64,000 bases of DNA from Ostreococcus lucimarinus (GCA_000092065.1 CP000595.1), one strand, 5' to 3'. Shown: positions 3,688 to 33,766, numbered from the stretch's first letter. Numbers and translations: made by a program. Notes: generated from the sequence alone by a model not told the origin.

Positions 3688-3729
3688 ATGTCGACGCGGC
3701 GCGTCGACGCGCGCGCGACGACGACGACG

Positions 3730-3760
<31 letters not shown>

Positions 3761-6700
3761 AGGTGTTGGACGACGCGATGGCGACGGCGACGGCGCCGAC
3801 GCCGACGCGAAGCGCGCGAACGCCGAGCGCGTGGACGCGGACGGCGATGATCGCGATCGCGCTCTTCGCGGCGCTCGGCGGCGCGACGCCGGGCCGCGCG
3901 GCGTTCACGGCGGACGTGTGTTACGGCGCGTCGTGGGAGCCGACGGCGACGGCGACGAAGGCGTCCATAGGGAAAACCGTCAAACCGGTCACCGCGGTGC
4001 CGAAAGAGCACCCGCTGTTCGTGGACGCGTTCGCGAAGGCGTGCTTGGACGTGGGGAACGCGGCGGGGAACACGTCGGCGGCGACGACGGTGCGATTGCC
4101 GAAGCGGACGAACGCGGGGAACGAGACCTATTGGTCGAACGCGGCGGGGGCGTGCGCGACGTCGCCGACGGTGAGCGCGGGACAGTTGTTTTATAATCGA
4201 GCGGAGATGGGATCGACGTTGTCGTACGCGGATTCGAACACGGGACTGGAGAAGGATAAGACGGTTAGGATTGTGTTCGTGAACGACGACGGAAAGGGCG
4301 CGCACGTGGTGGTGTTGGCGGGCGCGAGGGCGGCGACGGGGTCGAGCTCTCCCGAGGTTGGGCTGATGATGGAGGGTGGTTCGTTGAAAAACTCGGCGAA
4401 CGTGGTGATAGAGGAACCTCGGGGATTGACGAACGTGGTGACGAGTGGAAGCGGATGCGACCCGTCGGTTTCGTCGGCGAGCGATTGCTACGAGTTGGAC
4501 ACGGATTTGGGTCTTGGCAAGTTTCGCTGGGGATCGGGATCGGATCAACGCGGTATCGTCATCGGCCACGTCGCCGATGTGAACTCAGAGTTTGCGATGA
4601 AGTTCACGCTGCTCGAACGCATCGATTCGGTGGAGATTGGGTCGTTTGACGACGCGACGTTTGCGATGTCGTGGGAGACGATTCCGACGGCGAGCGCGTT
4701 GAGAGGTTTCAAGATTCGCAGCGCAACTTGCACGAATCACTGCGCTTTGCACGCAACGTGCGCGTCGTGCGCCACGGATGACGCGTGCGGGTACTGCTCG
4801 GCGACGAAGACGTGCACGAAGATTGATGGTTCGTGCTCGAGCGGCTTCGACGTCATCGGCGAGTGCCTCGATACGTGCGGCGCGGCGTTGACGTGCGGCG
4901 AGTGCGCCGATCAGAGCGGATGTGGGTGGTGCCACACCACTGGTCGGTGTACCGCGGCGCAGCTCGACGGTAGTGCTCCGCAAGATGGTAATTGCTCCGC
5001 GTTTAGCGTGGGATCGAGCGCACAGTGCGCCACGTGTCCGGGCGCCGTCACCTCAACTATGTTGCCCGCTTACGTAGATGTCGACCGCGTCAGCGCGTTT
5101 TGCAACGGCAGGGGGACGTGTGATAACATCACGCGCACGTGTACGTGCTCGAGCGGTTACGGTGGAGACGGATGCGAGAAGATGTGCCCCGGCGGCGCGA
5201 GCAATCCGTGCTCGAGAAACGGTTTATGCGACTCGGCGTCGGGAAGTTGCTTCTGTAATCCTGGCTACGTCGGCTCGCGATGTAACGCCGCCACGATAGT
5301 CGGGACGTGCGAATGTGGCTCAGCGCACACATACTTGAAGTCGGACGGCACGCAGCAGCGCGTGTGCTCTGGTCGTCTCGATTCGAGCGGCTCGTGCGTG
5401 TGCCTCGAGGGATGGTCGGGTGTAAACTGCACCGTCGCGTGCGCCGGCACCTTGACCGTCGGCACCGAGGTGTGTGGTGGACACGGTACGTGCAATGTTG
5501 GAACCGGTCAGTGCGATTGTGAGCCGTGTTATTCGCGGGACGCCACTTCAGGGCTTTGCGTGCAAGACACTTGCTCAACGTGCGACTCTAGCAATGGAGT
5601 GTGTTCGTGCGTGAGCGGAAGTATGCAATGCGCCTGTCGGGGCGCCTTCGATGGGTACGCGTGCGATCAGTGCAAGTGTGGCGACCACGGTCGTTGCAAC
5701 GCACTCTCGGGCGAGTGCGAGTGCGACGCAGGATACGCTGGCGAGCTCTGTGAGCGACTCATTGAGCCGCAGCCGACGTGCGCCAACGGCGGCACCTGGA
5801 ACGCGGCCCTCAAGCGATGCGAGTGCGCGGGCGGATACACGGGCACTCTTTGCGATGCAGCGTGCACGACGAACCCGTGTAATGATCTTTGCAGTGGGCA
5901 TGGTACCGTGAACGTCGATGGGACCTCGTGTACGTGTTTCACTGGATTCTCGGGGAGCACTTGCAACACTTGCGCCACAGGCTACGGCCCGTATCCCAAG
6001 TGCGGCGCGACGCTTGCAAACGGAGAATGTACAGATAATATCGTAGCTTACACTGGGACCACAAACGTGACGATTTCGGGCAAACAGTGCCAGTCGTGGT
6101 CGTCCCAATCGCCGTTCGCGCACACGTACGCGTCGTCTTCGGGATCGACGAGCAATGAGTGTCGTAATCCGTCGTCTGACGCGCACCCGTGGTGCTACGT
6201 CGATCACACCGCCATCACCGGGTCGTACACCCGAGGCGAACCTCGATGGGAGTTTTGTTCAGTACCGACGTGTAAGTCGGCATACGTCAACCCACAGAAG
6301 ATTTGTGGCGTTTTCGGTGGTGAAACAGTCGTGACGTTTGACAAGGACTCCACCTCGGGAGCGCTCAACGCTGTCAGCCAACAGGCGCTGACGACGACGA
6401 ACGACGCAGTGGACAAGACGAACTGTGGCGCAATGAATCTGACTAATAACGATATCACCTTGCACGCGAACGCCGCGGCGCATGGAGACTTTGTCGCTCG
6501 GTTCGCCGAAGACTCCGGCACGGGTTATGCGAGACGCATCATCACGCACATCGGTCTCAAAGCATCCGTTTCGCCGGCGCACGATAGCGTCGAAGTGCAC
6601 GCCGATGGCACCGTGAAAGTCAACAGTGTTACCAAAACGAATGATCTGCCATACTCCGACGGCTCCACTGGTGTTTTGTGCGTGTCTGACTGGATGCCCG

Positions 6701-9700
6701 TGAGCTCGGGCTTGGCGAGCACGGAGCTTTTACAAATAACGATTTCAGAGACGACGGTGGCAAACATCACCAAGTTTACCGCTTGCACGGGATGCGCGGC
6801 GCAGCTCATCGTGGTCATAAGTGTCCCAAATAGTGTTACATCGACAGGCATATGCGCCACGGCGGGCTCGGCGACCAGCGTAAACTTCGACGAGAACGCA
6901 GAAGGAAGCGCGCCGTGGGGCGTCGGCGCGGCGCTCAACGCCGCTTGCGGGACCGACACGCACGACCCTGGTAGCGTCTCAACGGTGCAAGCGAAGTGGT
7001 GCGACCAGTGCCAGTATCTGGGTGAAGTGTACGATTCGTGCGTCGCTCAGATGGCGAACGAAGGGTTCAACTTTGCCCGCGCCGCCGTAATAGAGGGCTG
7101 TCGCATGGCGTTTGTGGCAATCTACGGATACGACCGCACGATTCCCTCATATCTCACGGCGACGGCGTCGACGGGCGCCACATTAGCGGACACCGTGTAC
7201 CCGTATAGAAGCTACACTCCGTCTGATGTGCAGTTTAAGTCACTCTCCGACAATCGCTTAGCTTTTGACGTGCTAGACGTCACGGAAACCTTGCCGGAAT
7301 ACATCGTCGGTACGACGAGAACGGATGGGTCGCGCACGCGAATGACTGGTTTGCCACGAGAGTTTACAGGCGAGACCGATACGACGCAAGTGTTCCCGTT
7401 CCCTAGAATTGAAGACTCGTGCAGAACCGCGAGTGATATAGGATCAACATCTGGGTATCGCGTGTACACTATGAATTACGCTTCGGCGACGGATGAAGCT
7501 CTGGAGATTACGATGTGCGGCTCCGCCACGGGAACCAACGTGGGCGTCTACACAAAAGACTTTGTAGACATCCCGTCGGCGGATTGGACGCACAATACTA
7601 CAAGTGCGAATGGGAATATCACTTTCACATTCACCCCGTGGATCGATGGCTTGGCCACGTATGAGGCTCGTTTCGAGTACTCTTTGGCGTCCACCAAGAA
7701 AAACGTGACGTTTGACGTCACTCGCACCTCTGCAAACGTCAACATTGGCTCGTTTGAATTCTACCCGCCGACGGCGTCGGATTCGTACGGCTCTGTTGGC
7801 TTTGAGTTTAGCGTTCCCAGTGCGGAAGCCGCCGCCACGGTTTCGTTCACAATGTCACCCACTGGCACTGGTGACTCAACGGCGGCGAACTCTGCGTTTA
7901 TCTCGCTTACCGCGGTTTTCATTCACGCGAAGAACTACGCGCAAGCGAGTTTGAATTACCCGCCATTCGGTGGGTTCAAGCAAGTCTCGTGCGCCAACTT
8001 CCAAGCGGCATCCTGTGGGTCGCTGAAGTTCACGGCGACGCAAAAGACATATTACATCGTCGTCTCTGGACAAAAATTCGTCTCGGGGGCGTACAGCATG
8101 CAAATAAAAAAGTTGAGCGCGGATTTGACAACCGTGTACACGGTGAGCAGCAACGCAGCGACGTCTTTGGTGAGGCCGTTGACGGGATTGGATGGCGCAG
8201 CCGATGGCACGTTGACGCCGTACAAGGTGGCAAAGTATGGCGATAATATTCGCGTCGTCGTGCGCGCGTCGCACGCAATAGATAGACCAAGAATCACGTT
8301 GGGCAATTACGCGGTTCCGAGCTCGAAGATTGTCTCTGCAGGTGCCGGCGCGGAGTATTCAGCGACGGTGACCGTCAGCGCTAGCATGGCGACTTCTGGA
8401 CACATCACGGTAAAGGTTGAGCAGGCGAGTACGCTCACCTCAGCATCGTATGGGTTTAAGACGTCCACTCATCCGTTGGGTTCTGACATCGCGCTCGTCG
8501 TGTTGGACAACACCGCGCCTACTGTCAGTCACGCCTGGGTCGTCAATCCATCCTACATGCTCGCGCCGTCGTCGGCGCCATCGTCCTGTACGAATCTTAC
8601 GACGTCCACGGGTAAGGATGTAAACGTTACGGCGGCAAAGTACGCAAAAGCGGGAGATTACATCGCCGTCATCTTTACGCCGTCGGAAAACGTCGCCACC
8701 ATCGGCGGTACCATCGGCGGTCAAGCTGCGACGAAATGGGTGCGAGCAACCGCGCCGCGCGACGTCACGCTCGCGATCGATGCTTATAAAATCACGATGT
8801 CCGCGGCCTACGTCGATGCCGCGTACGCGCTCGTCAATGACATCACACTCAGCGATGGAGTTTTACCGTTTTCCATTACGTTTACGGACGCCGTTGGCAA
8901 CGTCGGGACGACAATTAACTCGGCGATCAACTCCCTGACCGGTGTCACCGCGAGTTCACCTTTGGCCGATCGACTCAGCGCCGCTCGATTATTGTATGAT
9001 AAGTCACCACCGCGACCGGACTCATGGTCACTGAGGTACGCTAGTTCTTCGGAGATGACTGGGAACCAAGGTTCCAAGCCAGTGTATTATCACGGCTTTG
9101 ACAACGTGGCCTCGAGCGCCAAAGAGTATCGCATCGGTGACACGCTCGTATTAACTGGCACTTGGACCGAATATGTCTCTCGTCCGTACGGCGCGTACAT
9201 GCGCTCGAGCGCTTCAAGTGGCGTGCACGTTCCGCAATCAGCCATTACGATCACGGAGCAAGGCGGAAAACTCACCGGCAAGTTGGAGTGCATGGCGAAG
9301 GAGTTCCGTCCGCGAGCGCAAGAAGCCGTGAGCACCGCGCAAGGTTTCGGTGGAACCAGTTACGTGACATCGACATATCACAAATCATGGAAAGTGGAAG
9401 CGAACACGATCGATCCATGTGATATCGTCGGTAAAGGTGCGTTGGCGTGGAGCGCTCGCGCGGATTGCCAAGCGGAGCACTACGCCGGGAACTCGTTGTG
9501 GATTCCTCTCTGGTCTGCGTGGTGTCGTCACGGTTGGGGTACCTTGGGTTACGCCGTACTCGGAGGCGTCGACCCCGCTGGTAATTCGGCGACGGCGTTG
9601 CGCCAAGTGAGCAAATCTCCGAACAACGCCGACGCTACAGTTGTGATTGCCTCGTCCGCGGTGGCGGGCGACGCGATTATTCGCACGCCGATTCCCATCG

Positions 9701-12700
9701 CCGGGAAGATTGTGCCAAGCTGGATGAACTCAGTCCCTAGAGGTGACTGGACCGCAGACCCGAAGGTGATTGAAGTGTACATCGAGCCGCAAAACGTGAG
9801 ATGGAACGAGTATAGGCGCGTCGTCAAGGTTGGCGACATGCTGCAGATTCAATTCTACACTGACCAACCGGTGAAGGGCGTGCGCGCGCTCATCGGAGAC
9901 GATAAAGCCCTTCCGCCTGCGACACATTCCGAAGTCGCGAGCGCCATGAACGTCGAGCGACCGTGCTCAAGCGATCCGGACATGCAAACTTGGCTCGGCG
10001 CGCGCGGCTTGCTCGCGCTCGCCGCCGAAGAGTACAACGACGGATCGCAGTTTTCGAACGACGACGATTGGTTCGATTGGTTGGTTCAGACGTCTTACAA
10101 CTATCGCCAACCCGTGCCCAATGTGCCGAATTACCCCAACGCCGCTGTTACGTGCACTGGATTCTGGGTCCAACGCGGGTTACGACCCAACGGTAAGCGT
10201 TATTCGGTGCGCCGTTTGTGCCCGAATAGGTACTACTTGCGACGAAGCTCGTTCGCCGCTCAGGCGCCGCTTACGTGCTCGGATCCAAATGATCGAATCT
10301 ACAAAGCCACAGACGCGTACAACTATTGGGTGATCAACTTTAGATACGTCACATCGCATCAAGTCGTCAATGGCGACGGAGCGCTTCAAATCAAGTGGCA
10401 GTTGACCACGATGGACGACCGCGTGTTGCCGACGGGTGGCGGTTGGCAGACCTCTGCAGCCTTCTTCACCTCTGCGGACACCTCTGCGGATGTCAATCAT
10501 CTCAAACCAACGTCAACTGATGCCGTCGGCGCTGCGTTTGATCCCGCGATTAGCTGCGGGCGCAACGCGGATACCGCGTTCAATCAAGCCGGGTCGGCAG
10601 TCTGGGCCGTCCAAGATACGCTGGCGCCTTCGTGCGCGAGCTTTGTCACGGATGGTTCGTGCGCGAGCACGACTGTCGCCCGTGTCGCTAACAGTAGCGG
10701 TACGACGTTCCCCACCGTCACGAATCCGGCGACCAATGTCGCCGAGCACGTGGCCGTCGTTGGTGATTATATCACGCTCATCATCACTTTTGACGAGCAT
10801 ATTGCAGCTGGAGTGTACGTGACTTTGAACGACGGGGTTCTCACCGCTCGAGCGACGAAAGTTGACAAGTACTCGGCGACGTTCACCTTTGAGGTGACGC
10901 AGACGCTCGCGGCTCTGAATACGTTTTTGGAGTACAAAGTGTACAATCTGAAGGATATTCAGGAAGCGAACACGGCGACGGCGACGTTTACGACGAACGT
11001 CTTCAACGCTGAAAAGATTCGGTTGCAAAGCGCGAGCGAATTGACGGCGTTTTCGCTCACCAATGGCGCGTGCTCAACCACTAGTAACAACGTGAATAAT
11101 CAGTACGCCAAAAATGGGAATACAGTCAACGTCTCAGTGACGCTGCCGCTGCCACCGAGTAGCGCCAACACCGTGCTGACCATCCACGAATCCAAACTTG
11201 CGGGCGTCTACGTCACGCCGCCGACGCCCACATGCGTGGGTACACCGAATGCGTGCACGATAACCATGGCGCGTACGGTTGACAGTCTCTCAGCGGACTT
11301 CGTCGATGGTAGCGTCGTGTCTTGGTCACTGGTGGTTATCGGTACGACCAAGTGTGCGCACCACGCTTCAAGCTTGTGCATCACACGCTTCAAGCTCACG
11401 TCGTGTCGCCCGACGTTTGCGTCTGAAGTCGTCTTGGATTTTACGCCGCCGTCTCTGACTTCGGTGCGTTTGAGCGAGCCTGTCACCTCAGCCTCGCTCG
11501 TCAATGGCACTGGTCAAGTGAAAGTTGACGTCGTATCGAGCGAACAATTGTATACGCTGACGTACACATTGGATACGCGAGGCCCCCTGTGCACGTACGA
11601 CTTTGGCATGGTCTCCGCCCAGTCGATGACGTTGACGACGGATGGTACTCTCACGGGTACGCACACAAAAACCATCACCGCCACGTATAACTCCGCATCG
11701 CTTCATTGCGTGCTCGAAGTCATCTGTATCACGTTTGTCGGCGAAGATATGGCTGGACACAAGCTCACGAATCCGACGACGTGTCGAAGCTTTTCTCCGA
11801 CGGATTCCGAAGACTATCCAGGATGGTTCATGCTTCACAACGTCGGCACGGGCCCAAGTTCTGTCTCGCTCGCCCGACCTCTCGGGTTACACTGCATGGA
11901 TAGTTCCGTGGACACGCAGGCATGCGCTAACAGCGCAAGCGTGACTTCGACGACGCTCGAGTACGGGAATTATCTCGCTCTCGACGTGTCGTCGGGGTAC
12001 CCTATCGGCATTACTGACATTTCCGTGGACGGCCATTCCGTCTACGCGGCGACTGGCTTTGGCTCGTCTACGTTCCAAAATGATAACGCGTGGACGATCG
12101 ATTGCTCTGATTTGGTTCGCGACGACTTGTGCGTGCGCTTTGCCACGAGCGCGACGTGCCAGGCGTACTTATGCCCGACGTGCCAGTACGCCGGTATGTG
12201 TGACTTTTCGTGCGGCTACTGCGATAGCCGTCGAGCCTTCTCGAAAACTCACAAACTAACGCTGAAGACGACCGATTTCGGATTACCCGCGACCGATTTC
12301 ACTAACGAAGTCGTCACAGTTTCGTATCGAACGAATCCGGCGATTGCGCCGGCGGCGACGATGAACTCGACGGATACTCTTACGTACACGGCGCCCACGA
12401 CGAGTTCGTGTGCTGGTCGATGTGGAGGTACAGCGCCATCTGGCTGCGAATGCAACCCGACTTGCAAATCTCGGGGCACGTGCTGCGCTGATGCCGGCCA
12501 CTGTTGTACCGTCGGTTTGCCGTCCACAGGCGCTCTCAACGTCGACGGTGGATGTCTTCGACCAAACGCCGTGACGCTCAGCGTCACCAAAGAGTCTTGG
12601 GGGGTGGACACGAAAGGCGTGCGAAAATCTAACGTTAACCGATACTCCACGATTTACATTAAACTGACTGGAAACAAGCCGATTGACGTGCGACGTGTGC

Positions 12701-15700: not shown

Positions 15701-18700
15701 ACGGTGGCGATTGCTGCCAAGACACGTGCCGGCAAGTCTTTAGTGACGGCGCATATTGCCAGGCGCAAGATTGCCGGGATCACTCAATCTCACCAGTGAC
15801 AGGGCGACCGACATCTGGGTTCTGGAGCTCGTACAACGCCAAGGCGCTCGTCGCTCGGGAACTCTCTGTGGAGTGGAAGGTGACGTTTCCAGTAGATGAC
15901 ACTCTTCCGTTGATTGATGGCGTTCTCACCGGTACCGCGTGCTGCATGCAAGACAAGAGCGGCTTGGACGTGTTGCACGCAAATAAGGGTACATTCGTCG
16001 CGGGTGCGCCGTGCCTGGACGCTGTCTTGACTCGCGACACGAGCTGTTTGCTTCGCGCCGCGCTTACGGCGGACAACGGCGAATTCGTCGTCAAGGAAAA
16101 CCAGCCCGTATCGCTTACGCTCGAATTTGAAGGGAACCCTCGCGGGATGAATTGCACAATCGGCGGCGAATCGGTGACGATGACGCAGACACGCGCCGCG
16201 AGCTCTGGCGTCACCGCGCTGTGGTCAACCACACGGACTTCGGTGAATGCAGTCGACACCGCGATTGCGACGCGCATTGCGGCGTCTGAGGAGCAGAAGC
16301 GACGTCACGAACTTTTGCCCGAGGTTTTCGAATTAAATCTGTGGGCGAATTGTTCACGAGGCGTCACGATTCCGTTTGAGTGTTCCATTTCGGATTGCGG
16401 TGGCAACTTGTTTGAGATTACCGACGCCGTCGACCCGACTTCAGATGTGTGCTTTGACTACGTGCGCCCGGACGCGACCAGCATTGGGCAGACGAGTTCG
16501 AACACGTGCAGCAACGCATACGCCAAAGTTGGCGATACGCTGATACTCAACGTTACGATGGATGCGGACGTTTCCAATCCCACTGCGTACACCCTCGCTG
16601 GCGAAGCGTGCACGTTGAGAACTTTCGGTACGAATGCGTTTACGTGTGACGTCGTCGTGTCGTCGACGACGATTGAAGGACCCGCAAACTTCACGTTTGA
16701 CGGCATCAAAAGCTCTGTGCCCGCGTATCTCGACGCCGTCAACACGAGCTACACTGAACTGAAGACGTTATCTCCAGATGGCGTCGTCACGCTCGGTGGG
16801 GATCGCGTCATCATCGATCGGACTGCGCCGACTTTTGACTCTTTGGCGATGTACAGCCTCGAAGTCGCTAACAAGACGTGTCAGAAGCGGTGTACCGTTC
16901 GCGTCGCCATCGACGCCGCGGAAGAGTTGAGTAGCTGCACGGCAACTATCGGTGGCATCACTGCAAACATCACCGGCACGGGCTCCGAACGCGTGGCGGA
17001 GGCGTACATTGATGAGAACAGTGGTATAGCGGCGGGCGAGATTACCTTCTCCGTCATCTGCCTGGATCTCGCGTGCAACTCGGTGACGACATCGACGCTC
17101 GTTGGTGATACGGACGCCGTGATTTATTCTTTAGACCGGGACATTCCATTGGAAGTCTTGTTCTACAGCGATCGACCGGGGCACTTGGAAATTGGGAACG
17201 AAAACGACTGTCTCATGATGGAGATGAGGTTTCTTCTCGCCGTCGAACTGAAAGCCATCGTCATGGGCAATATTACGAACAACGCATTGAGTCTGTGGAA
17301 CATCACCACAACCGGTGGCGCCTTGGTAGTCCCGGGTACGACCCACACCTATTATCTCATCACTCACTGCATCACGGATGCGTGGGGTACGGAGGACTGG
17401 CCAGTCGTTCCTTGGAGTTTTACGTACGACGATGGATTGCAAGACGTTGTGTGGAACACGACTTTTACGTCTGACGTAAACTTTCCGCGAGTGGTCCGAC
17501 TCGATTTGGAAGACCCAGTCGCGACGTACGTCTACGCCTTCACCACTGGCGCTAATGATCCATCGGCTGGTCTCGGCGACGCGCTGTACTTGGATATCAT
17601 CGCCAGCGAAGCAGTTGTGGCGCCGACGGTGACGTTTGGCGGCGTAACGCTCAACGCCACCGATGTCTCGCAAGTGGGTACGTCTAGCGAGTGGCGCGCG
17701 GGTCCCTACATCGTGAAGAATTCGACGGATGACCCGAACATTCTGAAGGATATCAACGATTGTTTCTTATTCAGCGTGACGCTGAAGGACTTAGTCGATC
17801 ACACATCCATATTGTACTCGCAGCAAGTCAACGCCACGGGCTCGCTCAATTGCGTCACGCAACGCGTTGACATTGATCAAGATGCGCCCACCATCGTTTG
17901 GTTGCAAACTGAGTACGTCACCGCTACCACCGTAGACTTTACCTTTGCCGTAGACGAACTCTCCAACGTCAGCTACGTCGTCTTGCCGAGAGGTGCGGTG
18001 GAGCCGACGCCTTTGGAAGTTCAAGCAGGCACCGGAGCAGCGGGTACTGGCGCTGTGGCCAGCGGTGTTAAGGAATATCTTGGATCATCCACGCCTTCTC
18101 CGGGAGCTGGTGCGGGTGGCAAGGGCCAAGATGTGTTAAACATCACTGGTCTTCTCGCGGGTACGAACTACGACGTATGGTTCGTGCCTTTCGATCGATT
18201 CGGCAACTCCCAAACCGAGGCGCAAAGTCGATGGATACGAACCGTTGGGTTGGACATGCTCATCAACTCGCTTGCGACGCAAGAGGGCGGTTACACGGAT
18301 GTCATTCAGGTGAAGCTCACGCAAGTCCCGACCGCAGATGTTTCGGTGACGATCAGTGAACGCAGTGGTATCGGGAACGTCGTCCTCGTTGATCAGGCGC
18401 TGAGTCTTACGGATTACGTCTCCTCGGTGACGCTAGTCTTCACGCCCATCACGTGGAACGTAGCGCAAGAAGTCGGTGTCAAGGCGGTTGATGACATTTA
18501 TGTCGAAGATCAACACACAGAAGAGTTGAAGTTTGACGTACGATCGCTTGATGTACGCTATGACGCGCTCGTCGATCCAAACCGTACGGTCGTCATCGCA
18601 GATAACGACGAGTGTGGCGTCATCGTGTATGACCCCAACAATCGACCCTTGGAGCGCACTCTCTCGTGCAGCGCGAATGCAGTGATCGCTTTGTTGAACT

Positions 18701-21700
18701 ATTCCGTCGCTGAAGATACGACGGTATACGCAGATATCTACTTGCAAGCGGCGGTGCGAGGCGATGACGTGCGCGTGACGCTGACGAGCTCTGATTTGAC
18801 GCAAATTTCATCTCCAGCGTCCGTCACTCTGACGTTCAACGAAACCAACTACAATTTGGCGCAACGTGTCCCAATCATTCCGGTGTATTCGTGCGTCGCC
18901 GCGCTTGATCGCTACGTTCCGATCGCAGTGAGCGTAGAATCCGCGACGACGTGCGGCGATCTCGTCGTACCAGAAATTCCTGTGTACGTGACAGATTTGC
19001 AAAAGGTTGGATTAGCGTTTACCAAGGCGCAAATCACCGGCCCCCCCGGGAGCAACTACGAGTTTGACATGTATTTAACGTCTCAACCGACATCAGACGT
19101 TCAAGTGTCCTTAGCAACGCTACCAGACGCTTTCGGAGCCGACTTGTACGGCAGCGCGTCGTTCAATTGCGGTGCCCAAGGTCCTGTTTGGACGTTTAGT
19201 GCTGATGAGTGCTCGGTGCCGGTGACTTGCATCGTCACGCTCGTCGGCGACGACACCAAGTGCGGAGATGTGACGTTGCAAGTTGGCGCCAAAGTCACTT
19301 CCTTGGATTCAATGTACAACGGCATCTCGAGTTCGCCGCCGAATATGACCATCCTCGAAACCGCCAACGCCGCGGGATGGTACATTCGAAATGCTGACAA
19401 CACAGAATTCATCGTGACGCCGCCAGATGCGCCAAACGGCACGTTGCCGCTCGAACCGTGGAAGGTGAATGAACAGATTGAAACGGGTATTTACACCATC
19501 ACACCGACTACGGCGTTGTGCAAAACAGTGACCCTTCGACCGTATATTCCAGACACAGATTACGCTCGATACGCCACCATCTCTCCGAGACAGGTGACAC
19601 TTGAGGCTGGATTCTTTGGTCCGACGAAGTTCAAAGTCATCTTCCCGCGTAACTACAACGTGCCCGTGACGAACGACATCGTTCAAATTTGGCACGATGT
19701 GGTGTACGGCACTGATGATCCGGATTACCTCGCATTGAGCCCGAATCTCGGTGGTAGTGCCCTGCCGGTCGAAATCGTCGAGTACGACGTCGCCGGTTTA
19801 TTGCTCGGCAACGGCGCGGAGAACACTGTTCTCATCGATGAGCCGTGCTCGACAGATGTGACGACACAGGTCTCATCTTTGGGATTCACGCTGTCAAGTG
19901 CACCCTCTGCAACTGTCGTCGTTTCGCTCAGCGAAATGAATTACAACGCGACTCAACTCGCGATTCTGAAGGCGAATAAACACCTTGTGTTGGGGACAAC
20001 GTCGCTGAGTTTTACGCCCAACAATTGGAACATTCCGCAGCCGGTGATGGTCTCCGCCATCAGCTATGACAACCTGACGGAAGCCCGCACGGCATATGTA
20101 TGTGGAGATATGACTTCAGATGATGATGTGTATCAAGCACTGAATCAAACGTGCTACCCCGTGCATATTTGTGATTGCTCCGGTTCATGCGGTCTCATCT
20201 CGTTTGATGATCACGCGAATTGTACTTTCGCCGCTGACCAATTAAACAACACGGAGATAACGTTCCCGCCTAGTATGAAGCAACTTTCATCTTGTTGGAA
20301 CATCAGTGCCACCTGTGGCGGTATTCAGGTCGCGAGTTTAAGCGCTGCCGGTCACGATCCGGTCATGACGAACTTTACGACGCTGCCAGATTCTGAAGCG
20401 TACTCGGTGAGTTTGGACAAAGTACAACGGTTATTTTACACCACGCAGTGGTCTGTCATCGATAAACTCGAGCTACCGCTATCGCTAATCGATGGTGGTA
20501 TGCAAGGCTTGACGGACGCTTCTGGTACCTATTGCCTCGGTATCTCATCATCGAGCTTTGTCGTCAACAACACAGCCAATGGTGGCTTGTTTGTTGAAAA
20601 GGCCGCCCCGATGAGCGCCTTTGCGAATTCTTTCGAAATCCTCCCGGCAGCGGCGAATACATTTGATTCGGACGTGTACATCCTTGAGGTGAGAGTTCTT
20701 GCCGGTGCATCGCCGTTGACTGATTCGTATTCGCTCAATTGCACGGATGGAGGCAACTTCTCTGCACCAGGCGGATGTATCATCGGTCCCAGTCTTCGAG
20801 GGTATTTCAATAACGCAACGCAAGTCATGACGTTCACGAACACGGCATATCTCCCGGAAGCAGATTTGGCCAACGCAGCTGGTAGAAAATTACTTGGAAA
20901 GTACCCATACCCATCACAACGCCGTCGCCTGTTGCAGGCACCGGCTGCACCGGCTCCTGCATCGACTTCTCAATTTGTGTGGGCTGTGAACAACATAACG
21001 TTTTCGGACATCAGTCTAGATCCCACCGGTGCGACGCGAATGATGAACACTCGAGTGGTGGATCAGTTCGGGGCCATCGTCGAAGGACCAATTCTAAATA
21101 TCGATACCGAAGGTGTGAACGATCCACCGATTATCGATATCGACTTGCCGCTCATTTACACAGAGAAAGAGAGTCTGACGCTCAACGCACCGCTTCAAGC
21201 CTATGACGTTGACAATTATAATTGGACGCAGTGTGTCGTGAACATCACGGATATCGCAAACAACTTCATGGCTGGAGATACATTCTCGTATAACAAAACG
21301 GCAATCGTCGAATACTATCAGTATTGGAACACATCTTTGCCAGCCGGTTTCGTGGACATTGACGCCACGTTCACCGACTCTCAGCGTACAGTGACTTTCG
21401 CCGGCCTGGCGCCGCCGGCGGCGTACTTGCGTGCGATGCGAAACCTGGTGCTGTTGAATGCTGGACCGGCAATGACAGCGGATGATCGATACATCATGTT
21501 CTGCTGTCAAGATCCGGAAGCGCTCAACAACAAAGGGTGCGGTTTGCAACGTGTTGTGTTCCAACCCGTCAACGACCCCCCGCTAGCTGAGAACAAGATT
21601 GTGTATCTTGCTGATCCTCGCGTCGGAGGGTTAACCGGTGAAACTGTTCCAGGATCAGATCCTGATGGCGATACGTTCACGTTCAATATTTCATGCTTAC

Positions 21701-24700
21701 CGAACAAGGGTGACTTGACGTTCAACACCGCCACCGGACAGTTTGATTATGCCCCGTATCCAAACATGATCGGCGACGACAGATTCGTGTACTTTACGTG
21801 GGATGGATACACCGGTCCAAACGAACGCCCGTTGCAGTCGAAATACGCCACTGTAGAGATTCGCATCGGCAACGGCGAGACGAATCCCGTGGCGCAAGAT
21901 ATTAACGTCGATGTGTGGGAGAACTCTGCTGAGTATTTCACGTTCAGCGCCACCGATGCAGATTCCACCAACACGGAGATGACGAACGATATTCTTCGAT
22001 ATCAAATCTTTGAAGAACCGGAGCTGAATGTTGCGGGTATTCAGCTTGACACTCAGCAAATGAGTGGAGGGAAGCGATATTCCGAAAATGCAACGTTCCA
22101 GTACACGGCGTTCTCGAGTTCTGATCTCGTCAGGCGCGTGTCAGAGCGTATGGCGAACTACGGCACCAACTTCGATTTCAACACTCTTGCGCGAGAAAAT
22201 CATCCGGGATTCAACGTGACGTCCTTCAAATATGTCGCTATCGATTTATCTGGTCGCGTTTCCAACGTCGCAAACGCCTGGGTCTGGGTTCGACTCACCT
22301 CAGAGACGAATTCTCGACCGAGTGCCAACGCGATGACGTTCACCACGCCTGAATCTGTCGGCGTGGCGAGCAATTTCGACACGGCGGATTCCGAATCCCC
22401 GTTGCAACTGAGACACACGCTCCCATCGCTCGCGTTACAGCCGACGCTCGGCGTCGCTGCGCAAGTCGGTATCGCTGCCTCACCCTACGGCAAGGCGTTC
22501 ACATATGAACCGTTTCCATTCTATTACGGCGTTGATGTGTTCGAATACCTCGTCACCGATCCACACGGGTCTACTTCTGATCTCACCACTATCACCGTCA
22601 CGGTCTCGCAAGTCGATCAGCCGCCACAAGGCGCATGCGGAGTGAACTCTACTCTTAAGTCCTCAGCCGATCCGACGTACGATCTCAAAGGACGAACGGC
22701 GGAACTGAGCGTGCTCATGGGTTATCAAATTATCCGCGCCAAGACGATGCGATATTTGATCAATCCCGAGCGAAGAGACTTGGAGTTTTACAATTACTTG
22801 CCCTTTATCAATGATTTGTCCAAGTTTGACAGCGTCATCGATCATCAAAATATATTTTTGTCATGTGGGTCGACTTCAGCTTTGACAACGGCTGCTATTT
22901 ATCACGACCAAGTGACCGCGGTGGCGCTCTTGGCGTACGATGTCGACCAAGCTGTGAACGACACAATACGGTACGTACTAAGTGAACTGCCGACTATAGC
23001 GTCGTCAGATGCAGCACGAGGTACAGCTGGGTACGCTGGTACTCTTTATCGATACGTCGCCCCGAATGGCACATATTACAACTCCACCGGGACGACAGTG
23101 TACTCTTACACATCAGATTCCGTCACCGGACTCACGCCGCTCGCCGCTGGTGATACCATCGGTGACGCCGCGAATGGGGCTGTAATGCTGCTTTTCAAGC
23201 CTCGAGAATACATCCACGGACCAATCACGTTCAAATGGCATGCGGTAGATACAACGACGTCGGCGCGAGGCGACGACGTCGCGATGACAATCAGTGCCAT
23301 GTGCAGAGGAGGTGAAAGCGTCAACGCTGACCATGGAGAAACGTGCGATTTGTGCCCAGTTGGTTCATTCAACTCGGCGAACATAGCCGATCAACAAAGC
23401 TGCGTGCAGTGCCCGGCGGGGAGTTACACCTCCGCCACGGGCTCGACTATTTGCGTGCCATGTCCCGCGGATACGTACGCGAGCACCGCCGGATCGCAAG
23501 TCTGTACACCATGCCCAGCGAACACGCGTTCACCATCAGGAAGCGACGACGTTTCAGATTGCCTGTGCGATATCGGTTTTGTCGTTTCGAACAGCCCGCA
23601 GTGCCATCCTTGCGCGCTCGATCGCGTCAAATGTACCGAACTCGGTCAGTACACACCTCTTCCGTACGATGGATTTTGGCAAGATAGCACAAATGGAAAA
23701 CGAAACCTCACCTGTATCCCGGGCTTGGCTTGTCAAGAGAAGTTTGATAAGGACGAAGTACGCACTGGTGCATGTGCGCAACCTCGGTTCTACGCCAATA
23801 ATGTGACAAATTCTCCCGCGTACGTCGGAGATGGTTGCTCAAAGTGTGCGAAAGATCACTATCGTTACGCGTCCTTCTGCGAAGCGTGTGACCCAGTGCA
23901 AGAAGTAAGAATCTTCTTCGTGATACTGGCGTACTGCGTTGCGCTTTACGCCATGTTCGAACTCGCAACACACCCAGCTATTCCTTCTTTGACGATTTTG
24001 CTGTCATTCACGCAAATCACTGCTCAAATGCAGTACTTTGAAATTCCGTGGCCGAAAGCGCTCGCGCGTTGGATGCAAGTCGCGTCGCTCGCCGTGGCAG
24101 ACTTACAAATCCTTGGTTTAGATTGCGTTTCGACCTGGGACTACTTCACGCGATTCGCGACGACCATGTTCGCACCTTTTGTTTGGGTGTTCGTCCTCGG
24201 CATCGCCATCATTTTACGCTGCTGGAGAGAGATTGCGAATCAAGCTTATGCGAACGTGCAGCGACGGCGACTGATTGAGCGTCGAAGACTGCTCCACGAA
24301 TTTGACGTCGACGCCAAAAAATGGACTGATCTCGCCATCGCTCGCGATGGGTTACCGTTTGATCGCCCCGATTTGAAGGGCAAAGGAGACGACTACAACG
24401 CACTTGAGCTGCATCTGTACGGCAATACTAAAAACGAAGGGTTGCGAAAAAGAGTCTTCAAAGAGGGCGTCGAAGAGTTACGCAAGGCGGATTTGCGGGC
24501 GAAAAGCTCGCAAGAACAGTCCAAGACTGAGCGAAAGCTGAGGCAAACCAAGGATGAAATAGAAGAGCTCGAAAAGCAAAAGGCTGTGAGCGCCAGAATC
24601 ATCCGGGATAACGTCAACCGCGCCATTCCTTCGCTCGTCATCGTCATGTGGTGGGGTTACATGCTCTTGAGCCGCACCGCGATCGAGTACTTTGAATGCA

Positions 24701-26742
24701 AAGATAACACTGAGTCGGTGTTATTGGTGGCGGATCCACAGATAAGATGCAATTTTGATAAGCACTTGCAGTGGAAGCCTGTTGCGTTGATTGGTTTCAT
24801 TCTCTATCCGGTTGGTTTGTTCCTTGCCGCATTTGGCTGGCTTTACGTCCATCGATCAAGCTCAAAGACGCGACCGCGCGTGCACGTCTTGGCCACGAGA
24901 GCGTCTCAGATTGAGAAGGCTCGCGCCGATCAGGTTGAACAATTCAATGCACGTTACGGTATGATGTACAACTGCCTTCGTCCACAATTTTATCTATGGA
25001 TATGTGTTGACCTAGGCAAAAAGTTTTCCATCGTTGGCGTCAAGGTTTTGTTCCCGAACGACATTTTGTTGCAATCATTCGTCTCGATGGTTGTCTTCGT
25101 AACTTTCGGGATCATGAGCACGAGGAATCCTTACGTGAGTGTGAACTTGAACGTAGCGGAAATGCTTGCGACATTCATGAACTCAATCACGCTCATCGCA
25201 GGGTTCTACTTCCAGCTTGGTATCATGGATGACGTGTCTACGCAGATCGCCACGTACGTTATCATCAGTGGTTTGGCTGGCACGACGATTGTCTTGACCG
25301 TCATCGTCGTCGTCGAGTTTTTCCCATGGATGAAGCGCTTGTTTTTCTTGCTCAAGTACAACACGCAAACCGATATTTACAAACCAGATAAAATCGGCAC
25401 GCACGAAAGTGGACCGCAAGGAACTTCGTGCTACATTTTTGCTTCAGATTCAGCGTTCAGATACTGGTGCTGGCGCACAGTTCGTCATCCAGTTTTTGAC
25501 CGTCTCATCACAGCCACCGTGATGATGAGCGTCGGTTGTCTCATTTCGGAGTCTGTCTTATACGACGAAACTTTCACGTCATCTGCGTACGTGCGCATCG
25601 TGTGGTTCAATTCGTTCATGAACGGTATCTTTGTTTTGGAAGCTGCCGTGAAAATCATTGCCATGGGTTTCATCCTTGGCGATGGCGCGTACCTGCGCGA
25701 TACTTTCAACTGCATCGACTTTTTAGTCATCATGTTGCAGTTCATTCTCTTCGCAGTGAACATCACGACGAATGTCACCGGTGCGAGAAGTGCGAGATTT
25801 GTCAAATTCGCGCGCGTGGCGAAGGTCAGAGTCATTCGCGTCTTCCGAAGATTCCTGCAGTTTAACGCCGTCCGCGGCGAGAAATTCCGTCTGATGCTAC
25901 TTGAGGCGAAGGCGGAGGACACGCCCGCGCTCAGCGAGAGCATCGAGCGACTTCGCGTGGTTTTTGAACCACGCAGTGCCGAGACGATGGAATACAACTT
26001 GCGGGTGCTACAGCCCGATGTTTTGCGCGTCGCCCAAGGACTGATTGACGAGCTTTACCAAGAAAAGTTTGATCCTGAATTGGTCGCCGTGTACGAATCT
26101 CAAACCGACGCCGTGCATCAGATGGTGCAGAAGCAATATCACGACATCGTGTACGAATGGCTCGCTTTCGTGGCAGAACCTGGGCAAAAGCGCGCATTTT
26201 TGGCCACGCTGAAGAACATCCGAGACGTCGCCCTGGATCTCGGTCCTGAGGGCATCGCCAAAGAAATGCTTCGTCAAAAGTACGACATCGCCGCCATTCT
26301 CAACACGGCGTTGTACAAGGTTCCAGCCGATGTCAAGACGGACACGCGAGCGTATAAACGAAAGATTGCGAAAGACGCCAAGTCATTCACCAGCACAAAG
26401 GCAACCATCAGCAAACAATTCAACGCCTTCCAGGCTTCCATGCAAAGTGACGACCGCGTCGAAGATGCACTCAACCAGTTGCCGCTGCACTCGGTGGAGG
26501 AAGACAGCGCTCTCGCCAAACGGCGCGCCGAGAACGCGAGCGTGCGCATTCGTAACCGCTCGCTCAATGCGAGTGCAAAAGAGAAAATCATCCAAGATGA
26601 TCTTCAACAGAAAACCTCAGGCGCGGGCGAGCTCCTCGCAGCGGCGTCTAGCGTCGTCGCTGAAGACGACGTCGCTCCCGCCGCGCCGGCACCGGTGAAA
26701 TCGTCCGGATTGTTGGCGCGTTTCCGAAAGAAAAAGACGTGA
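3688..26742 (+). CDS. Giant 7684-aa single-exon mosaic surface protein. It has a signal peptide, PSI modules, many EGF/laminin-EGF repeats, kringle, somatomedin-B, LNR-like, cadherin-like/VCBS (VNDPP, DPDGD) repeats and ephrin-receptor-like Cys repeats. These are followed by about 13 TM helices with a C-terminal voltage-sensor-like S1-S4 domain without a pore, and a coiled-coil cytoplasmic tail
   Basis: Uninterrupted 23-kb ORF. Motifs read directly include QSGCGWCHTTGRC and ACGYCSATKTC (PSI), CNGRGTCDNITRTCTCSSGYGGDGCEKMC (EGF), CRNPSSDAHPWCY...WEFCSVPTC (kringle), SCAGRCGGTAPSGCECNPTCKSRGTCCADAGHCC (SMB), DGVCDPSATLNNRDGCWDGGDCC (LNR) and CPVGSFNSANIADQQSCVQCPAGSYTSATGSTICVPCPADTY (ephrin-receptor-like). 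The S4 is SARFVKFARVAKVRVIRVFRR. The true start is probably a downstream Met (MATATAP at about 3778, or MIAIALFAALGG at about 3847), because the first 30 codons are a (GAC)n-derived poly-Arg tract. Confidence 0.85.
4729..4950 (+). other. PSI (plexin-semaphorin-integrin) domain pair within the giant protein
   Basis: CTNHCALHATCASCATDDACGYCSATKTCTK and CGECADQSGCGWCHTTGRCTAAQ. Confidence 0.6.
6028..6273 (+). other. Kringle domain within the giant protein
   Basis: CTDNIVAYTGTTNVTISGKQCQSWSSQSPFAHTY...NECRNPSSDAHPWCYVDHTAITGSYTRGEPRWEFCSVPTC fits the kringle consensus (CQxW, CRNPD...PWCY, WEYC..P.C), in frame with the 3688 ORF. Confidence 0.7.
12409..12507 (+). other. Somatomedin-B-like domain within the giant protein
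   Basis: CAGRCGGTAPSGCECNPTCKSRGTCCADAGHCC has the 8-Cys spacing and GxCC motif of SMB domains. Confidence 0.55.
15658..15729 (+). other. Notch/LNR-like Cys module within the giant protein
   Basis: CDPSATLNNRDGCWDGGDCCQDTC. The WDGGDC motif is the LNR hallmark. Confidence 0.45.
23344..23640 (+). other. Ephrin-receptor/TNFR-like Cys-rich repeats just before the TM region of the giant protein
   Basis: CDLCPVGSFNSANIADQQSCVQCPAGSYTSATGSTICVPCPADTYASTAGSQVCTPCPANTRSPSGSDDVSDCLCDIGF. Confidence 0.5.
25490..25860 (+). other. Voltage-sensor-like domain (S1-S4) at the C-terminal end of the giant protein's TM region. No S5-pore-S6 follows it
   Basis: S1 is FDRLITATVMMSVGCLISE. S2 is RIVWFNSFMNGIFVLEAAVKIIAMGF, with an acidic E. 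S3 is FNCIDFLVIMLQFILFAV, with a D. S4 is SARFVKFARVAKVRVIRVFRRF, with R or K at every third position seven times. It is followed by soluble coiled-coil sequence to the stop at 26742. Confidence 0.6.

Positions 26743-33726: not shown

Positions 33727-33766
<40 letters not shown>

What the first reader, a model, noticed from the sequence alone, without database searches (positions are those of the whole stretch)
3688..26742. 7684-aa single-exon mosaic surface protein ending in a pore-less voltage-sensor domain
One continuous 23-kb ORF strings together module types usually thought of as animal-type: PSI, EGF/laminin-EGF, a canonical kringle, a somatomedin-B domain, an LNR-like WDGGDC module, cadherin-like/VCBS repeats and ephrin-receptor-like Cys repeats. 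It then enters about 13 predicted TM helices. The last four form an S1-S4 voltage sensor with seven R/K at every third position in S4, an acidic residue in S2 and an Asp in S3. No S5-pore-S6 follows, only coiled-coil cytoplasmic sequence. A giant extracellular adhesion-type array fused to a stand-alone voltage sensor, as in Hv1 or VSP, is not an architecture I know from described families. It would couple membrane potential to, or sense it at, a cell-surface scaffold.
Basis: partly seen in the sequence, partly recalled or inferred. Interest (0 to 1): 0.8.

Follow-up and report, generated by a model that had tools for sequence, protein, structure and literature searches.

The report
Giant algal surface protein with voltage sensor
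A 7684-residue surface protein of the tiny marine alga Ostreococcus ends in a real, conserved calcium-channel-type voltage sensor that has no channel pore after it; the sensor instead sits between a nine-helix membrane module distantly related to fungal Pkd2/Flc putative channels and a new cytoplasmic domain, an arrangement I found described nowhere.

Summary
Window 3688..26742 (+) is one 7684-aa ORF in Ostreococcus lucimarinus. Kringle, ephrin-receptor-like and cadherin-like modules are confirmed. PSI and somatomedin-B are sub-threshold, and LNR is unsupported.

The last four TM helices are a genuine S1-S4 voltage sensor (Pfam Ion_trans positions 1-112 of 241, E 2e-12; Cav2.3 repeats I/III in PDB, E 5e-30). 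No S5-pore-S6 follows, and the next gene is unrelated.

Two parts of the interpretation need correcting:
- **Not stand-alone.** The sensor follows a roughly 490-aa, nine-helix module from a widespread family, 16 of 40 sampled members of which hit Pfam PF06011 (fungal Flc/Pkd2 "TRP-like" putative channels). It precedes a conserved, unclassified ~125-aa cytoplasmic domain.
- **Cav-type, not Hv1/VSP-type.**

The order (Cys repeats, 9-TM module, sensor, tail, stop) recurs in 49 metagenomic loci down to 32% identity, and in a 6608-aa protein at 23%. The S2 Phe/Glu/Lys, the S3 Asp and five in-register S4 charges are conserved throughout.

Best reading: the sensor modulates the 9-TM module and/or the tail, in an SLC9C1-like layout. 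That mechanism is inferred, not shown. New variant of a known kind; interest about 0.7.

The parts
3688..26742 (+). Complete 7684-aa ORF (ATG to stop) of the giant protein, in Ostreococcus lucimarinus CCE9901
   Evidence: The ORF is listed and translated. There are 0 in-frame stops against 283-286 in the other forward frames, and GC3 is 0.58-0.73 throughout. The organism is identified by an exact match of a neighbouring protein to XP_001421780.1.
3847..3903 (+). Signal-peptide-like hydrophobic segment (aa 54-72). It is preceded by an Arg10 run, so the real start may be M31 or M54
   Evidence: Hydropathy peak and the sequence. The assignment as a signal peptide is inferred.
4723..6294 (+). Cys-rich N-terminal block: PSI-like (sub-threshold), an EGF-type array, and a kringle (aa 786-862, nt 6043-6273)
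   Evidence: Kringle E 5.2e-15 and PSI 6.7e-4 (below cut-off). Weak EGF_Teneurin/EGF_TEN hits. Cys content is 10-16%.
6295..20967 (+). About 4900 aa of unclassified Thr/Ser-rich ectodomain with many N-x-S/T sites. It includes an SMB-like Cys knot (aa 2907-2941, sub-threshold) and the unsupported LNR-like motif (aa ~3989-4011)
   Evidence: No Pfam hits at E<=0.5 apart from the SMB-like stretch. SMB scores 7.5e-4 and LNR has no hit. One internal repeat pair lies at aa ~4850 and ~5400.
21556..21816 (+). Cadherin-like / bacterial Ig-like (Big_9, Cadherin_4, Cadherin_5) domain, aa ~5957-6043
   Evidence: Big_9 E 2.5e-6, Cadherin_4 E 1.3e-4.
23299..23892 (+). Juxtamembrane Cys-rich repeats of Ephrin_rec_like / TNFR_ELAPOR1 / NCD3G type, aa ~6538-6735
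   Evidence: Ephrin_rec_like E 8.5e-14. The same repeats precede the TM module in P0116, P0280 and most family members.
23893..25365 (+). Nine-helix membrane module (aa 6736-7226) with a ~130-aa cytoplasmic helical insert (aa ~6847-6977) and a predicted extracellular beta-hairpin flanked by invariant Cys7004 and Cys7021. It is a divergent relative of the PF06011 (Flc/Pkd2 'TRP-like') family
25366..25452 (+). Conserved cytoplasmic linker (…KIGTHESGPQG…), aa 7227-7255, joining the module to the sensor
   Evidence: SGPQG is conserved across lineages.
25453..25866 (+). Cav-type voltage-sensor domain: pre-S1 helix (aa 7256-7266), S1 (7268-7291), S2 (7299-7329), S3 (7339-7364), S4 (~7366-7393). Two N-x-T sites lie in the S3-S4 loop
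   Evidence: Ion_trans profile positions 1-112/241, E 2.1e-12. Cav2.3 7xlq E 4.7e-30, matching repeats I and III. Helices come from the AF2 models. Conserved residues: D7271, S7281, E7288, N7308, F7315, E7318, K7322, R7337, D7338, D7344, R7367, R7370, K7373, R7376, K7379, R7381, R7384. Foldseek on the low-confidence model hits only Nav/Cav channels.
25873..26262 (+). Conserved helical cytoplasmic domain directly after S4 (aa 7396-7525; motifs LR.L, LI.E, VYEWLA, K..F). It belongs to no known family
   Evidence: Alignment of 13 lineages with 25 invariant columns. No PDB hit (best E 0.17) and no Pfam hit. AF2 predicts it as helical with pLDDT ~73-87 in part.
26263..26742 (+). Low-complexity, poorly conserved C-terminal tail (aa 7526-7684) and the stop codon. 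No hydrophobic segment is present
   Evidence: Orthologs likewise stop 93-136 aa after the conserved region.

Best explanation
The gene encodes a giant, glycosylated cell-surface protein of the wall-less picoalga Ostreococcus. Its membrane end is a three-part signalling unit:
- a nine-helix module distantly related to fungal Flc/Pkd2 putative stretch-activated Ca-permeable channels;
- a voltage-sensor domain captured from a repeat of a four-domain Cav-type channel;
- a conserved helical cytoplasmic domain continuous with S4.

The sensor most likely moves its S4 charges with membrane potential. That movement would be passed on through the S4-contiguous cytoplasmic domain and/or by lateral contact in the membrane. 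It would tune the activity of the nine-helix module (ion flux or signalling) or of partners bound to the tail. SLC9C1 works this way: its sensor lies C-terminal to the transporter and acts through cytoplasmic helices.

Shown here: the domain identities, their order, the absence of a pore after S4, and conservation across lineages. Inferred: the topology, voltage sensitivity, any channel activity of the nine-helix module, and the coupling between the parts.
For: - **The sensor is real.** It matches Ion_trans S1-S4 only, at E 2e-12. Cav repeats I/III match at E 5e-30, including the pre-S1 segment.
- **The sensor machinery is complete and conserved.** S2 Asn(-10)/Phe/Glu/Lys, S3 Asp and five i+3 S4 charges are kept in lineages at 60-69%, 32-36% and 23% identity.
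- **No pore follows.** No match and no hydrophobic segment come after S4. The tail is conserved in frame. Orthologs end 93-136 aa after the conserved region. The next gene is unrelated.
- **The upstream module is a conserved family linked to PF06011**. It is confidently modelled. A nine-TM count fits the nine-helix Pkd2 TM domain (bioRxiv 10.1101/2022.08.11.503631).
- **A family member conducts calcium.** Reconstituted Pkd2 passes Ca on membrane stretch (PMC9727806).
- **The fusion is old and recurrent.** It appears in 49 metagenomic loci, plus P0280, P0116 and L051.
- **The tail travels with the sensor.** The tail domain is conserved wherever the sensor is present in the Ostreococcus and 32-36% lineages.
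- **A precedent exists.** SLC9C1 has the same order of TM domain, sensor and cytoplasmic domain (PMC13095418).
- **A plausible donor exists.** A canonical multi-repeat channel (L047) carries the same YLRDSFNC.DF motif.
Against: - There is no functional evidence of any kind.
- The window's own 9-TM module has no direct Pfam hit. The PF06011 link is transitive.
- The confident model of the module resembles no solved channel or transporter.
- Channel activity in the PF06011 family rests on one reconstitution study.
- Most family members work without a sensor, so the module does not need one.
- The AF2 models give the sensor low confidence (pLDDT 40-72). They say nothing reliable about contacts between the sensor and the module.
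- The tail domain is only weakly recognisable in P0116.
Confidence: 0.5

Rival explanations
1. VSP-like reading. The nine-helix module is only a membrane anchor for the ectodomain. The sensor controls solely the conserved cytoplasmic domain, which would be a voltage-regulated enzyme, scaffold or protein-binding switch.
For: The tail domain starts directly after S4 and is conserved wherever the sensor is present in the Ostreococcus and 32-36% lineages. Family members without a sensor also lack this tail. Voltage-sensing phosphatases set the precedent (PMC13095418).
Against: The tail matches no enzyme or known domain and is small and all-helical. It is poorly conserved in P0116, although the sensor there is intact. 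This reading does not explain why the sensor is always fused to this particular module.
Confidence: 0.2
2. Hv1-like reading. The sensor itself is the conducting element, either a voltage-gated proton path or a gating-pore cation path.
For: The sensor has no pore domain, and a helical segment continues from S4, as in Hv1 and TMEM266 (PMC13095418). Marine phytoplankton do use Hv1-type channels (PMC3119654).
Against: The PDB search at E<=1 returned 48 Cav/Nav sequences plus one chance match (MORC2, E 0.9). No Hv1 or VSP appeared. S1 has no mid-helix Asp; it has Ser7281 and a Glu7288 at the outer end, as in Nav/Cav. S4 carries a full run of five i+3 charges plus the Phe gasket, which normally occludes the gating pore.
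Confidence: 0.08
3. The S1-S4 domain is a structural relic that no longer senses voltage. It would serve only as four extra anchoring or assembly helices.
For: There are no functional data. The physiological membrane-potential dynamics of Ostreococcus are essentially unknown. AF2 confidence for the sensor is low.
Against: The residues that matter for charge transfer are invariant while the surrounding residues vary. These are F7315, E7318, K7322, D7344 and R1-K5. This holds across lineages at 23-69% identity. The pattern is hard to explain without selection for sensing.
Confidence: 0.12
4. The single giant ORF is an artefact: an assembly or read-through fusion of separate genes, or an ORF interrupted by unrecognised introns.
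For: No cDNA evidence was available. The exact 7684-aa product is absent from the 15-billion-protein collection. Some distant loci show broken ORFs (L034, L038, L049).
Against: The same continuous reading frame was recovered independently in dozens of metagenome contigs from several lineages. It runs at least 2000 aa upstream plus module, sensor and tail. P0116 is one 6608-aa ORF on a 20.6-kb contig. P0280 holds Cys repeats, module and sensor in one product. The coding signature is uniform.
Confidence: 0.04

Closest known systems
SLC9C1 (sperm-specific Na+/H+ exchanger, sNHE)
   Same: Both have the same order of parts in one polypeptide: a multi-helix TM domain, then an S1-S4 sensor of Nav/Cav type, then a cytoplasmic helical domain continuous with a long S4 and no pore (PMC13095418). 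It is the best precedent for how a sensor placed C-terminal to another membrane module could regulate it.
   Different: The upstream module here is not an NHE fold; it has no Pfam exchanger hit and lies in the PF06011 neighbourhood instead. There is no CNBD. A ~6700-aa ectodomain precedes the module. The sensor is closest to Cav repeats I/III. The two are not homologous as whole proteins.
Four-domain voltage-gated Ca/Na channels (Cav/Nav), repeats I and III
   Same: The sensor sequence, including the pre-S1 segment, the S2 F..E...K motif, the 'Y.RD..N..DF' S2-S3/S3 motif and the S4 Arg/Lys ladder, matches Cav2.3/2.2/2.1/3.x best. An environmental channel fragment, L047, shares YLRDSFNC.DF.
   Different: Only one repeat's S1-S4 is present. 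Ion_trans profile positions 113-241 (S5-P-S6) are absent.
Fungal Flc / Pkd2 'TRP-like' family (Pfam PF06011)
   Same: The nine-helix module belongs to a family in which 16 of 40 sampled members hit PF06011, best E 2.2e-12. It has a nine-TM topology like the S. pombe Pkd2 TM domain (bioRxiv 10.1101/2022.08.11.503631). An extracellular domain lies N-terminal to the module and a cytoplasmic tail C-terminal to it.
   Different: The window's module has no direct PF06011 hit. It is preceded by Ephrin_rec_like repeats and a giant ectodomain rather than the Ig-fold lipid-binding domain. A ~130-aa cytoplasmic insert is present. No fungal member is reported with a voltage sensor. The modelled fold matches no solved TRP or polycystin channel.
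Hv1, voltage-sensing phosphatase (VSP) and TMEM266: the known pore-less sensor proteins
   Same: All have an S1-S4 domain not followed by S5-P-S6, with a helical continuation after S4 (PMC13095418, PMC6392501).
   Different: There is no sequence affinity to them in PDB at E<=1. There is no mid-S1 Asp, no RxWRxxR-type S4 and no PTEN-like domain. Here the sensor is the C-terminal part of a 13-TM, 7684-aa protein rather than the only membrane domain.

Membership tests
Voltage-sensor domain (S1-S4 of the Ion_trans superfamily) | Significant profile match restricted to S1-S4 | tested here: met
   PF00520 E 2.1e-12, 47.2 bits against a cut-off of 25, profile positions 1-112/241. 48 Cav/Nav PDB sequences match at E<=1, best 4.7e-30.
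Voltage-sensor domain (S1-S4 of the Ion_trans superfamily) | S4 with at least three basic residues at every third position | tested here: met
   R7367, R7370, K7373, R7376 and K7379 are in register. R7381 and R7384 follow after a one-residue slip. The pattern is conserved in all lineages.
Voltage-sensor domain (S1-S4 of the Ion_trans superfamily) | Charge-transfer centre: S2 aromatic plus acidic residue, and S3 Asp | tested here: met
   F7315, E7318 (with K7322) and D7344 are invariant across 14-18 aligned sequences down to 21-23% identity.
Voltage-sensor domain (S1-S4 of the Ion_trans superfamily) | Gating charge movement in response to voltage | not testable with these tools
   This requires electrophysiology or voltage-clamp fluorometry.
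Canonical voltage-gated cation channel (6-TM unit) | S5, pore loop and S6 following S4 | tested here: not met
   Ion_trans positions 113-241 are unmatched. No hydrophobic segment follows aa 7393. PDB alignments stop at S4. Orthologs end without a pore. The next ORF is an AMP-binding enzyme with ankyrin repeats.
Hv1 voltage-gated proton channel | Mid-S1 Asp selectivity filter and sequence affinity to Hv1 | tested here: not met
   S1 reads VFDRLITATVMMSVGCLISESVLY, with no mid-helix Asp. No Hv1 chain appears among the PDB hits at E<=1. The defining role of the S1 Asp is taken from the literature (PMC13095418 reference list).
Voltage-sensing phosphatase (VSP/TPTE) | PTEN-like phosphatase domain after S4 | tested here: not met
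   The tail has no Pfam hit and no PDB hit.
SLC9C1 (sNHE) | NHE-type transporter domain before the sensor and a CNBD after it | tested here: not met
   No Na_H_Exchanger or cNMP_binding hits in Pfam. Foldseek matches to SLC9C1 are insignificant, E 0.8-4. Only the order of the parts is shared.
PF06011 'TRP' (Flc/Pkd2) family | Direct match of the module to the PF06011 profile above the gathering score | tested here: not met
   The window's module (aa 6735-7261) has no PF06011 hit at E<=5 or E<=0.01.
PF06011 'TRP' (Flc/Pkd2) family | Homology through intermediate sequences, and a nine-helix TM domain | tested here: inconclusive
   The window's module hits family members at E 6e-18 to 5e-6 in a library of 1.8 billion proteins. 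16 of 40 of those hit PF06011, best E 2.2e-12. The nine-helix count comes from the AF2 model plus the positive-inside rule.
TRP / polycystin channel fold | Structural similarity of the TM module to solved TRP/PKD2 channels | tested here: not met
TMEM266 | Sensor as the only TM domain, with an S4-contiguous coiled coil for dimerisation | tested here: not met
   Nine TM helices and a 6700-aa ectodomain precede the sensor here. Coiled-coil dimerisation was not tested.

The most novel reading that the evidence does not exclude
This would be a fifth class of voltage-sensor-coupled protein, alongside pore channels, Hv1/TMEM266, VSP and SLC9C1. A Cav-derived sensor would gate or tune a Pkd2/Flc-type nine-helix conductance that sits at the foot of a giant adhesin-like ectodomain. 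Mechanical or adhesive events at the cell surface and membrane potential would then be integrated in one polypeptide. The protein occurs in the smallest free-living eukaryotes and is conserved across marine picoalgal lineages.
Probability: 0.35. Interest if true: 0.85.

Novelty: new variant of a known kind. Interest (0 to 1): 0.7.

Why it matters
Only a handful of ways are known in which a voltage sensor is used outside pore channels: Hv1, VSP, SLC9C1 and the orphan TMEM266 (PMC13095418). Each discovery has changed how the field thinks about electromechanical coupling. This protein adds a conserved, naturally occurring case. In it, a Cav-type sensor was captured by an unrelated nine-helix module that is itself a poorly understood putative channel family (Flc/Pkd2), and by a new cytoplasmic domain.

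It offers three things:
- a test bed for how S4 motion can be coupled to non-pore effectors;
- a handle on the function of the PF06011-related family outside fungi;
- a reason to ask what membrane-potential signalling does in picophytoplankton, which dominate parts of the ocean and for which gene targeting should be possible in Ostreococcus tauri (from my own knowledge).

It also shows that very long single-exon genes can hide unusual domain fusions that routine annotation may miss.

Tried and rejected
- **Pore in the next ORF or another frame:** rejected. The downstream ORF is an AMP-binding enzyme with ankyrin repeats, and the tail is conserved in frame.
- **Ortholog P0005 seemed to lose the sensor:** this was explained by frame slips in a long-read assembly. 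tblastn recovers the sensor and tail in adjacent frames.
- **Exact-sequence look-up of the 7684-aa product:** absent from the collection. I cannot tell whether public annotations model the gene differently. The search for homologous proteins never returned proteins longer than ~2050 aa, so the lack of NCBI hits there is not evidence that the gene is unannotated.
- **Second AF2 model (sensor plus tail):** too low in confidence (mean pLDDT 57.8) to use beyond helix positions. Its Foldseek hits, all Nav/Cav at E 4e-3 to 0.09, are only a weak consistency check.
- **Tail domain:** no PDB or Pfam relative.
- **Taxonomic naming of the 32-36% lineage by exact look-up of neighbouring genes:** failed. 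Only the 62% class could be tied to Ostreococcus.
- **Internal-repeat search of the ectodomain:** found only the EGF region and one pair at aa ~4850/5400.
- **Literature searches** for a prior description: none found.
Full report
**1. The observation**

Window 3688..26742 (+) is a single ATG-to-stop ORF of 7684 codons. It has no in-frame stop, against 283 and 286 stops in the other two forward frames. GC3 is raised along its whole length at 0.58-0.73, so it is coding sequence and not chance. A neighbouring protein (window 47352-48980, minus strand) is identical to XP_001421780.1 of Ostreococcus lucimarinus CCE9901. The other neighbours are plant or green-algal genes: glucan-water dikinase, an ACR-type ACT protein, an AP mu subunit and a ZIP transporter.

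**2. The ectodomain modules**

| Module | Position (aa) | Result |
|---|---|---|
| Kringle | 786-862 | E 5.2e-15, above cut-off |
| Ephrin_rec_like Cys repeats | ~6548-6587 | E 8.5e-14 |
| Big_9/Cadherin-like | ~5957-6043 | confirmed |
| EGF-type repeats | ~470-830 | weak hits only |
| PSI | ~396-441 | 20.4 bits, cut-off 23.1 |
| Somatomedin_B | 2907-2941 | 20.2 bits, cut-off 23.1 |
| LNR-like motif | ~3989-4011 | no hit |

About 4900 residues (aa 870-5760) have no other Pfam match. A signal-like hydrophobic segment lies at aa 54-72. Cys-rich blocks and many N-x-S/T sites fit an extracellular location; this is inference.

**3. The voltage sensor**

Pfam Ion_trans matches aa 7267-7389 at E 2.1e-12, but only over profile positions 1-112 of 241, which is S1-S4. 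A phmmer search of the last 951 residues against PDB returns 48 Cav and Nav alpha-subunit sequences (plus one chance match, MORC2, E 0.9). The best is Cav2.3 at E 4.7e-30. The strongest local alignments are to repeats I and III and include the pre-S1 segment. No Hv1 or VSP appears at E<=1.

The residues that define a working sensor are all present:
- S2: Asn7308 (position -10), Phe7315, Glu7318 and Lys7322.
- S2-S3 stretch: AYLRDTFNCIDF, containing Asp7338 and the S3 Asp7344.
- S4: R7367, R7370, K7373, R7376 and K7379 at strict i+3 spacing, then a one-residue slip, then R7381, R7384 and R7387/88.

Two N-x-T sites in the S3-S4 loop fit the expected outside location.

**4. No pore**

After S4 there is no hydrophobic segment and no channel similarity. 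The protein ends 291 residues after S4. The next ORF (26891..29977) is an AMP-binding enzyme with ankyrin repeats, and that gene is syntenic in other Ostreococcus lineages.

**5.

The ~490 residues between the Cys repeats and the sensor (aa 6736-7226) have no direct Pfam hit. An exhaustive HMMER search found 470 representatives at E<=1e-3. Many sit at the C-terminal end of large or giant proteins and follow Ephrin_rec_like repeats. Examples are a 5241-aa protein of the trebouxiophyte Myrmecia bisecta and a 7209-aa protein.

When 40 members were scanned individually, 16 hit PF06011 'TRP', best E 2.2e-12 (first seen). PF06011 is the fungal Flc/Pkd2 family. S. pombe Pkd2 has a nine-helix TM domain (bioRxiv 10.1101/2022.08.11.503631). 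When reconstituted, it lets Ca through on membrane stretch (PMC9727806).

AF2 models the window's module with high confidence (pLDDT 85-97). Combining the helix map with three further clues gives nine TM helices and a cytoplasmic C-terminus. This is inference. The clues are:
- the positive-inside rule;
- the invariant Cys7004/Cys7021 pair flanking a predicted beta-hairpin;
- the long Arg-rich cytoplasmic insert.

**6. The tail**

Directly after S4 comes a ~125-residue helical domain (aa 7396-7525). It has 25 invariant columns across 13 sequences down to 22% identity, with motifs LR.L, LI.E, VYEWLA and K..F. It has no relative in PDB or Pfam. The remaining ~160 residues are poorly conserved.

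**7. Conservation of the architecture**

- A syntenic ENA contig (L001) encodes aa 5706-7682 at 57-80% identity across frame slips typical of long-read assemblies.
- Protein searches found fragments at 62%, 52% and 35-38% identity. P0280 among them has Ephrin_rec_like and Ion_trans in one product.
- A metagenome scan found 49 loci in identity classes of 99-100%, 67-69%, 60-63% and 32-36%, plus a few more distant.
- In all lineages except the few loci with interrupted or truncated reading frames (e.g. L034, L038), the reading frame is unbroken for at least 2000 aa upstream, up to the edge of the fetched DNA. It stops 93-136 aa after the conserved tail.
- The 62% class is Ostreococcus. The 32-36% class has GC 0.66-0.70, and I could not name it.
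- P0116 is a 6608-aa single ORF on a 20.6-kb JGI contig, only 23-29% identical. It has the same order: Cys repeats, module, Cav-type sensor with S4 'KNLRMLRYLRFLRLRYLRVLRLVLR', a long tail and no pore.
- L051 is another such lineage.
- Across all of these, S1 Ser/Glu, S2 F/E/K (with Asn, or Asp in P0116, at position -10), the AY[LM]RD.FN.DF stretch and the S4 ladder are conserved, including its register slip. This is what selection for voltage sensing would produce.
- Most family members lack a sensor, so the fusion is a derived feature of a subset.

**8. Origin of the sensor**

L047 is an environmental fragment of a canonical multi-repeat channel with pore loops. It carries the same 'YLRDSFNC.DF' motif and is 30% identical over 110 residues to the window's sensor. 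Together with the PDB result, this points to capture of one repeat's S1-S4 from a four-domain Cav-like channel. This is inference.

**9. Mechanism**

- *Shown:* the domain identities, their order, the absence of S5-P-S6, and conservation.
- *Inferred:* the sensor responds to membrane potential, and S4 movement is passed through the S4-contiguous tail domain and/or lateral contacts. The outcome would be modulation of the nine-helix module or of tail-bound partners.
- *Closest precedent:* SLC9C1, which has a 13-TM transporter, then a sensor, then cytoplasmic helices and a CNBD (PMC13095418).
- *Rivals:* a VSP-like sensor-to-tail switch with the module as an anchor; an Hv1-like conducting sensor, disfavoured by the lack of a mid-S1 Asp, the full charge ladder and the Cav affinity; a non-sensing relic, disfavoured by the conservation pattern; and a gene-model artefact, disfavoured by many independent contigs.

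**10. Comparison with what is known, and novelty**

The review PMC13095418 lists the sensor-bearing classes as voltage-gated channels, Hv1, TMEM266, VSP and SLC9C1. This protein fails the defining features of each non-channel class, as set out in the membership table, although it shares its layout with SLC9C1. Six literature searches found no description of a sensor fused to a PF06011-type module, or of this Ostreococcus gene. I could not establish whether public annotations contain a model of the gene. The exact product is not in the collection, but one search tool appears blind to proteins above ~2050 aa. I rate it a new variant of a known kind, namely a pore-less voltage sensor coupled to another effector.

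**11. Verdict**

It is wrong to call the sensor stand-alone or Hv1/VSP-like. Function remains untested. Interest is 0.7.

Noticed in passing
L047:1-3079 (metagenome contig Ga0307398_10008317): A canonical multi-repeat Cav/Nav-type channel fragment, 828-aa ORF, GC 0.50, with pore loops. Its sensor carries the same YLRDSFNC.DF motif as the giant protein's sensor and is 30% identical over 110 aa. It is a plausible kind of donor for the captured sensor.
   Followed up: partly
P0116 (6608 aa, JGI contig of 20.6 kb) and L051:5-672: These are very divergent lineages (23-29% identity) with the same junction of nine-helix module to Cav-type sensor. P0116 is again a single giant ORF. The source organisms are unknown.
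   Followed up: partly
L034, L038, L049 (metagenome loci, GC 0.57-0.59): Homologous loci in which the reading frame is interrupted upstream of, or within, the TM module. The cause could be introns in an intron-richer relative or assembly errors.
   Followed up: no
window 3688-3903: The predicted N-terminus has an uninterrupted run of ten Arg (aa 15-24) before the signal-like hydrophobic segment (aa 54-72). The true start may be Met31 or Met54.
   Followed up: no
window 3688-26742 versus flanks: GC falls along the giant gene from ~0.62 to ~0.50, and GC3 from 0.73 to 0.58. Neighbouring genes are higher, at GC3 0.67-0.76. The cause was not examined; it could be amino-acid composition, expression level or regional composition.
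   Followed up: no
P0117 cluster (37 members in Tara, JGI and ENA marine samples): A ~920-940-aa protein with Big_9, Ephrin_rec_like and the N-terminal half of the TM module, 38% identical to the window and without a sensor. It is probably a smaller paralog in the same group of algae.
   Followed up: partly
window 23893-25365 (aa 6776, 6813, 6830, 7004, 7021): Across 40 divergent family members, the nine-helix module keeps invariant Gln6776, Cys6813, Pro6830, Cys7004 and Cys7021. The last two Cys flank a predicted extracellular beta-hairpin and may form a disulfide. One predicted TM helix (aa 7104-7121) carries conserved Asp/Lys/Lys.
   Followed up: partly
window 32638-33374: The glucan-water-dikinase ORF (minus strand, 30015-33374) and the Pyr_redox_2 ORF (plus strand, 32638-35241) overlap by ~740 nt in DNA of GC 0.71. 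This is probably over-extension of one ORF's 5' end rather than a true overlap.
   Followed up: no
window 59625-63032: Two long ORFs overlap on opposite strands: 633 aa on the plus strand and 1118 aa on the minus strand. The plus-strand one has no Pfam hit, and the minus-strand one was not scanned.
   Followed up: no
whole ORF product: The exact 7684-aa sequence is absent from the 15-billion-protein collection. No NCBI or UniProt entry covering aa 6501-7684 was returned, whereas the neighbouring O. lucimarinus proteins are present. The public gene model may be missing, split or different, or it may be hidden by a length limit of the search tool.
   Followed up: partly
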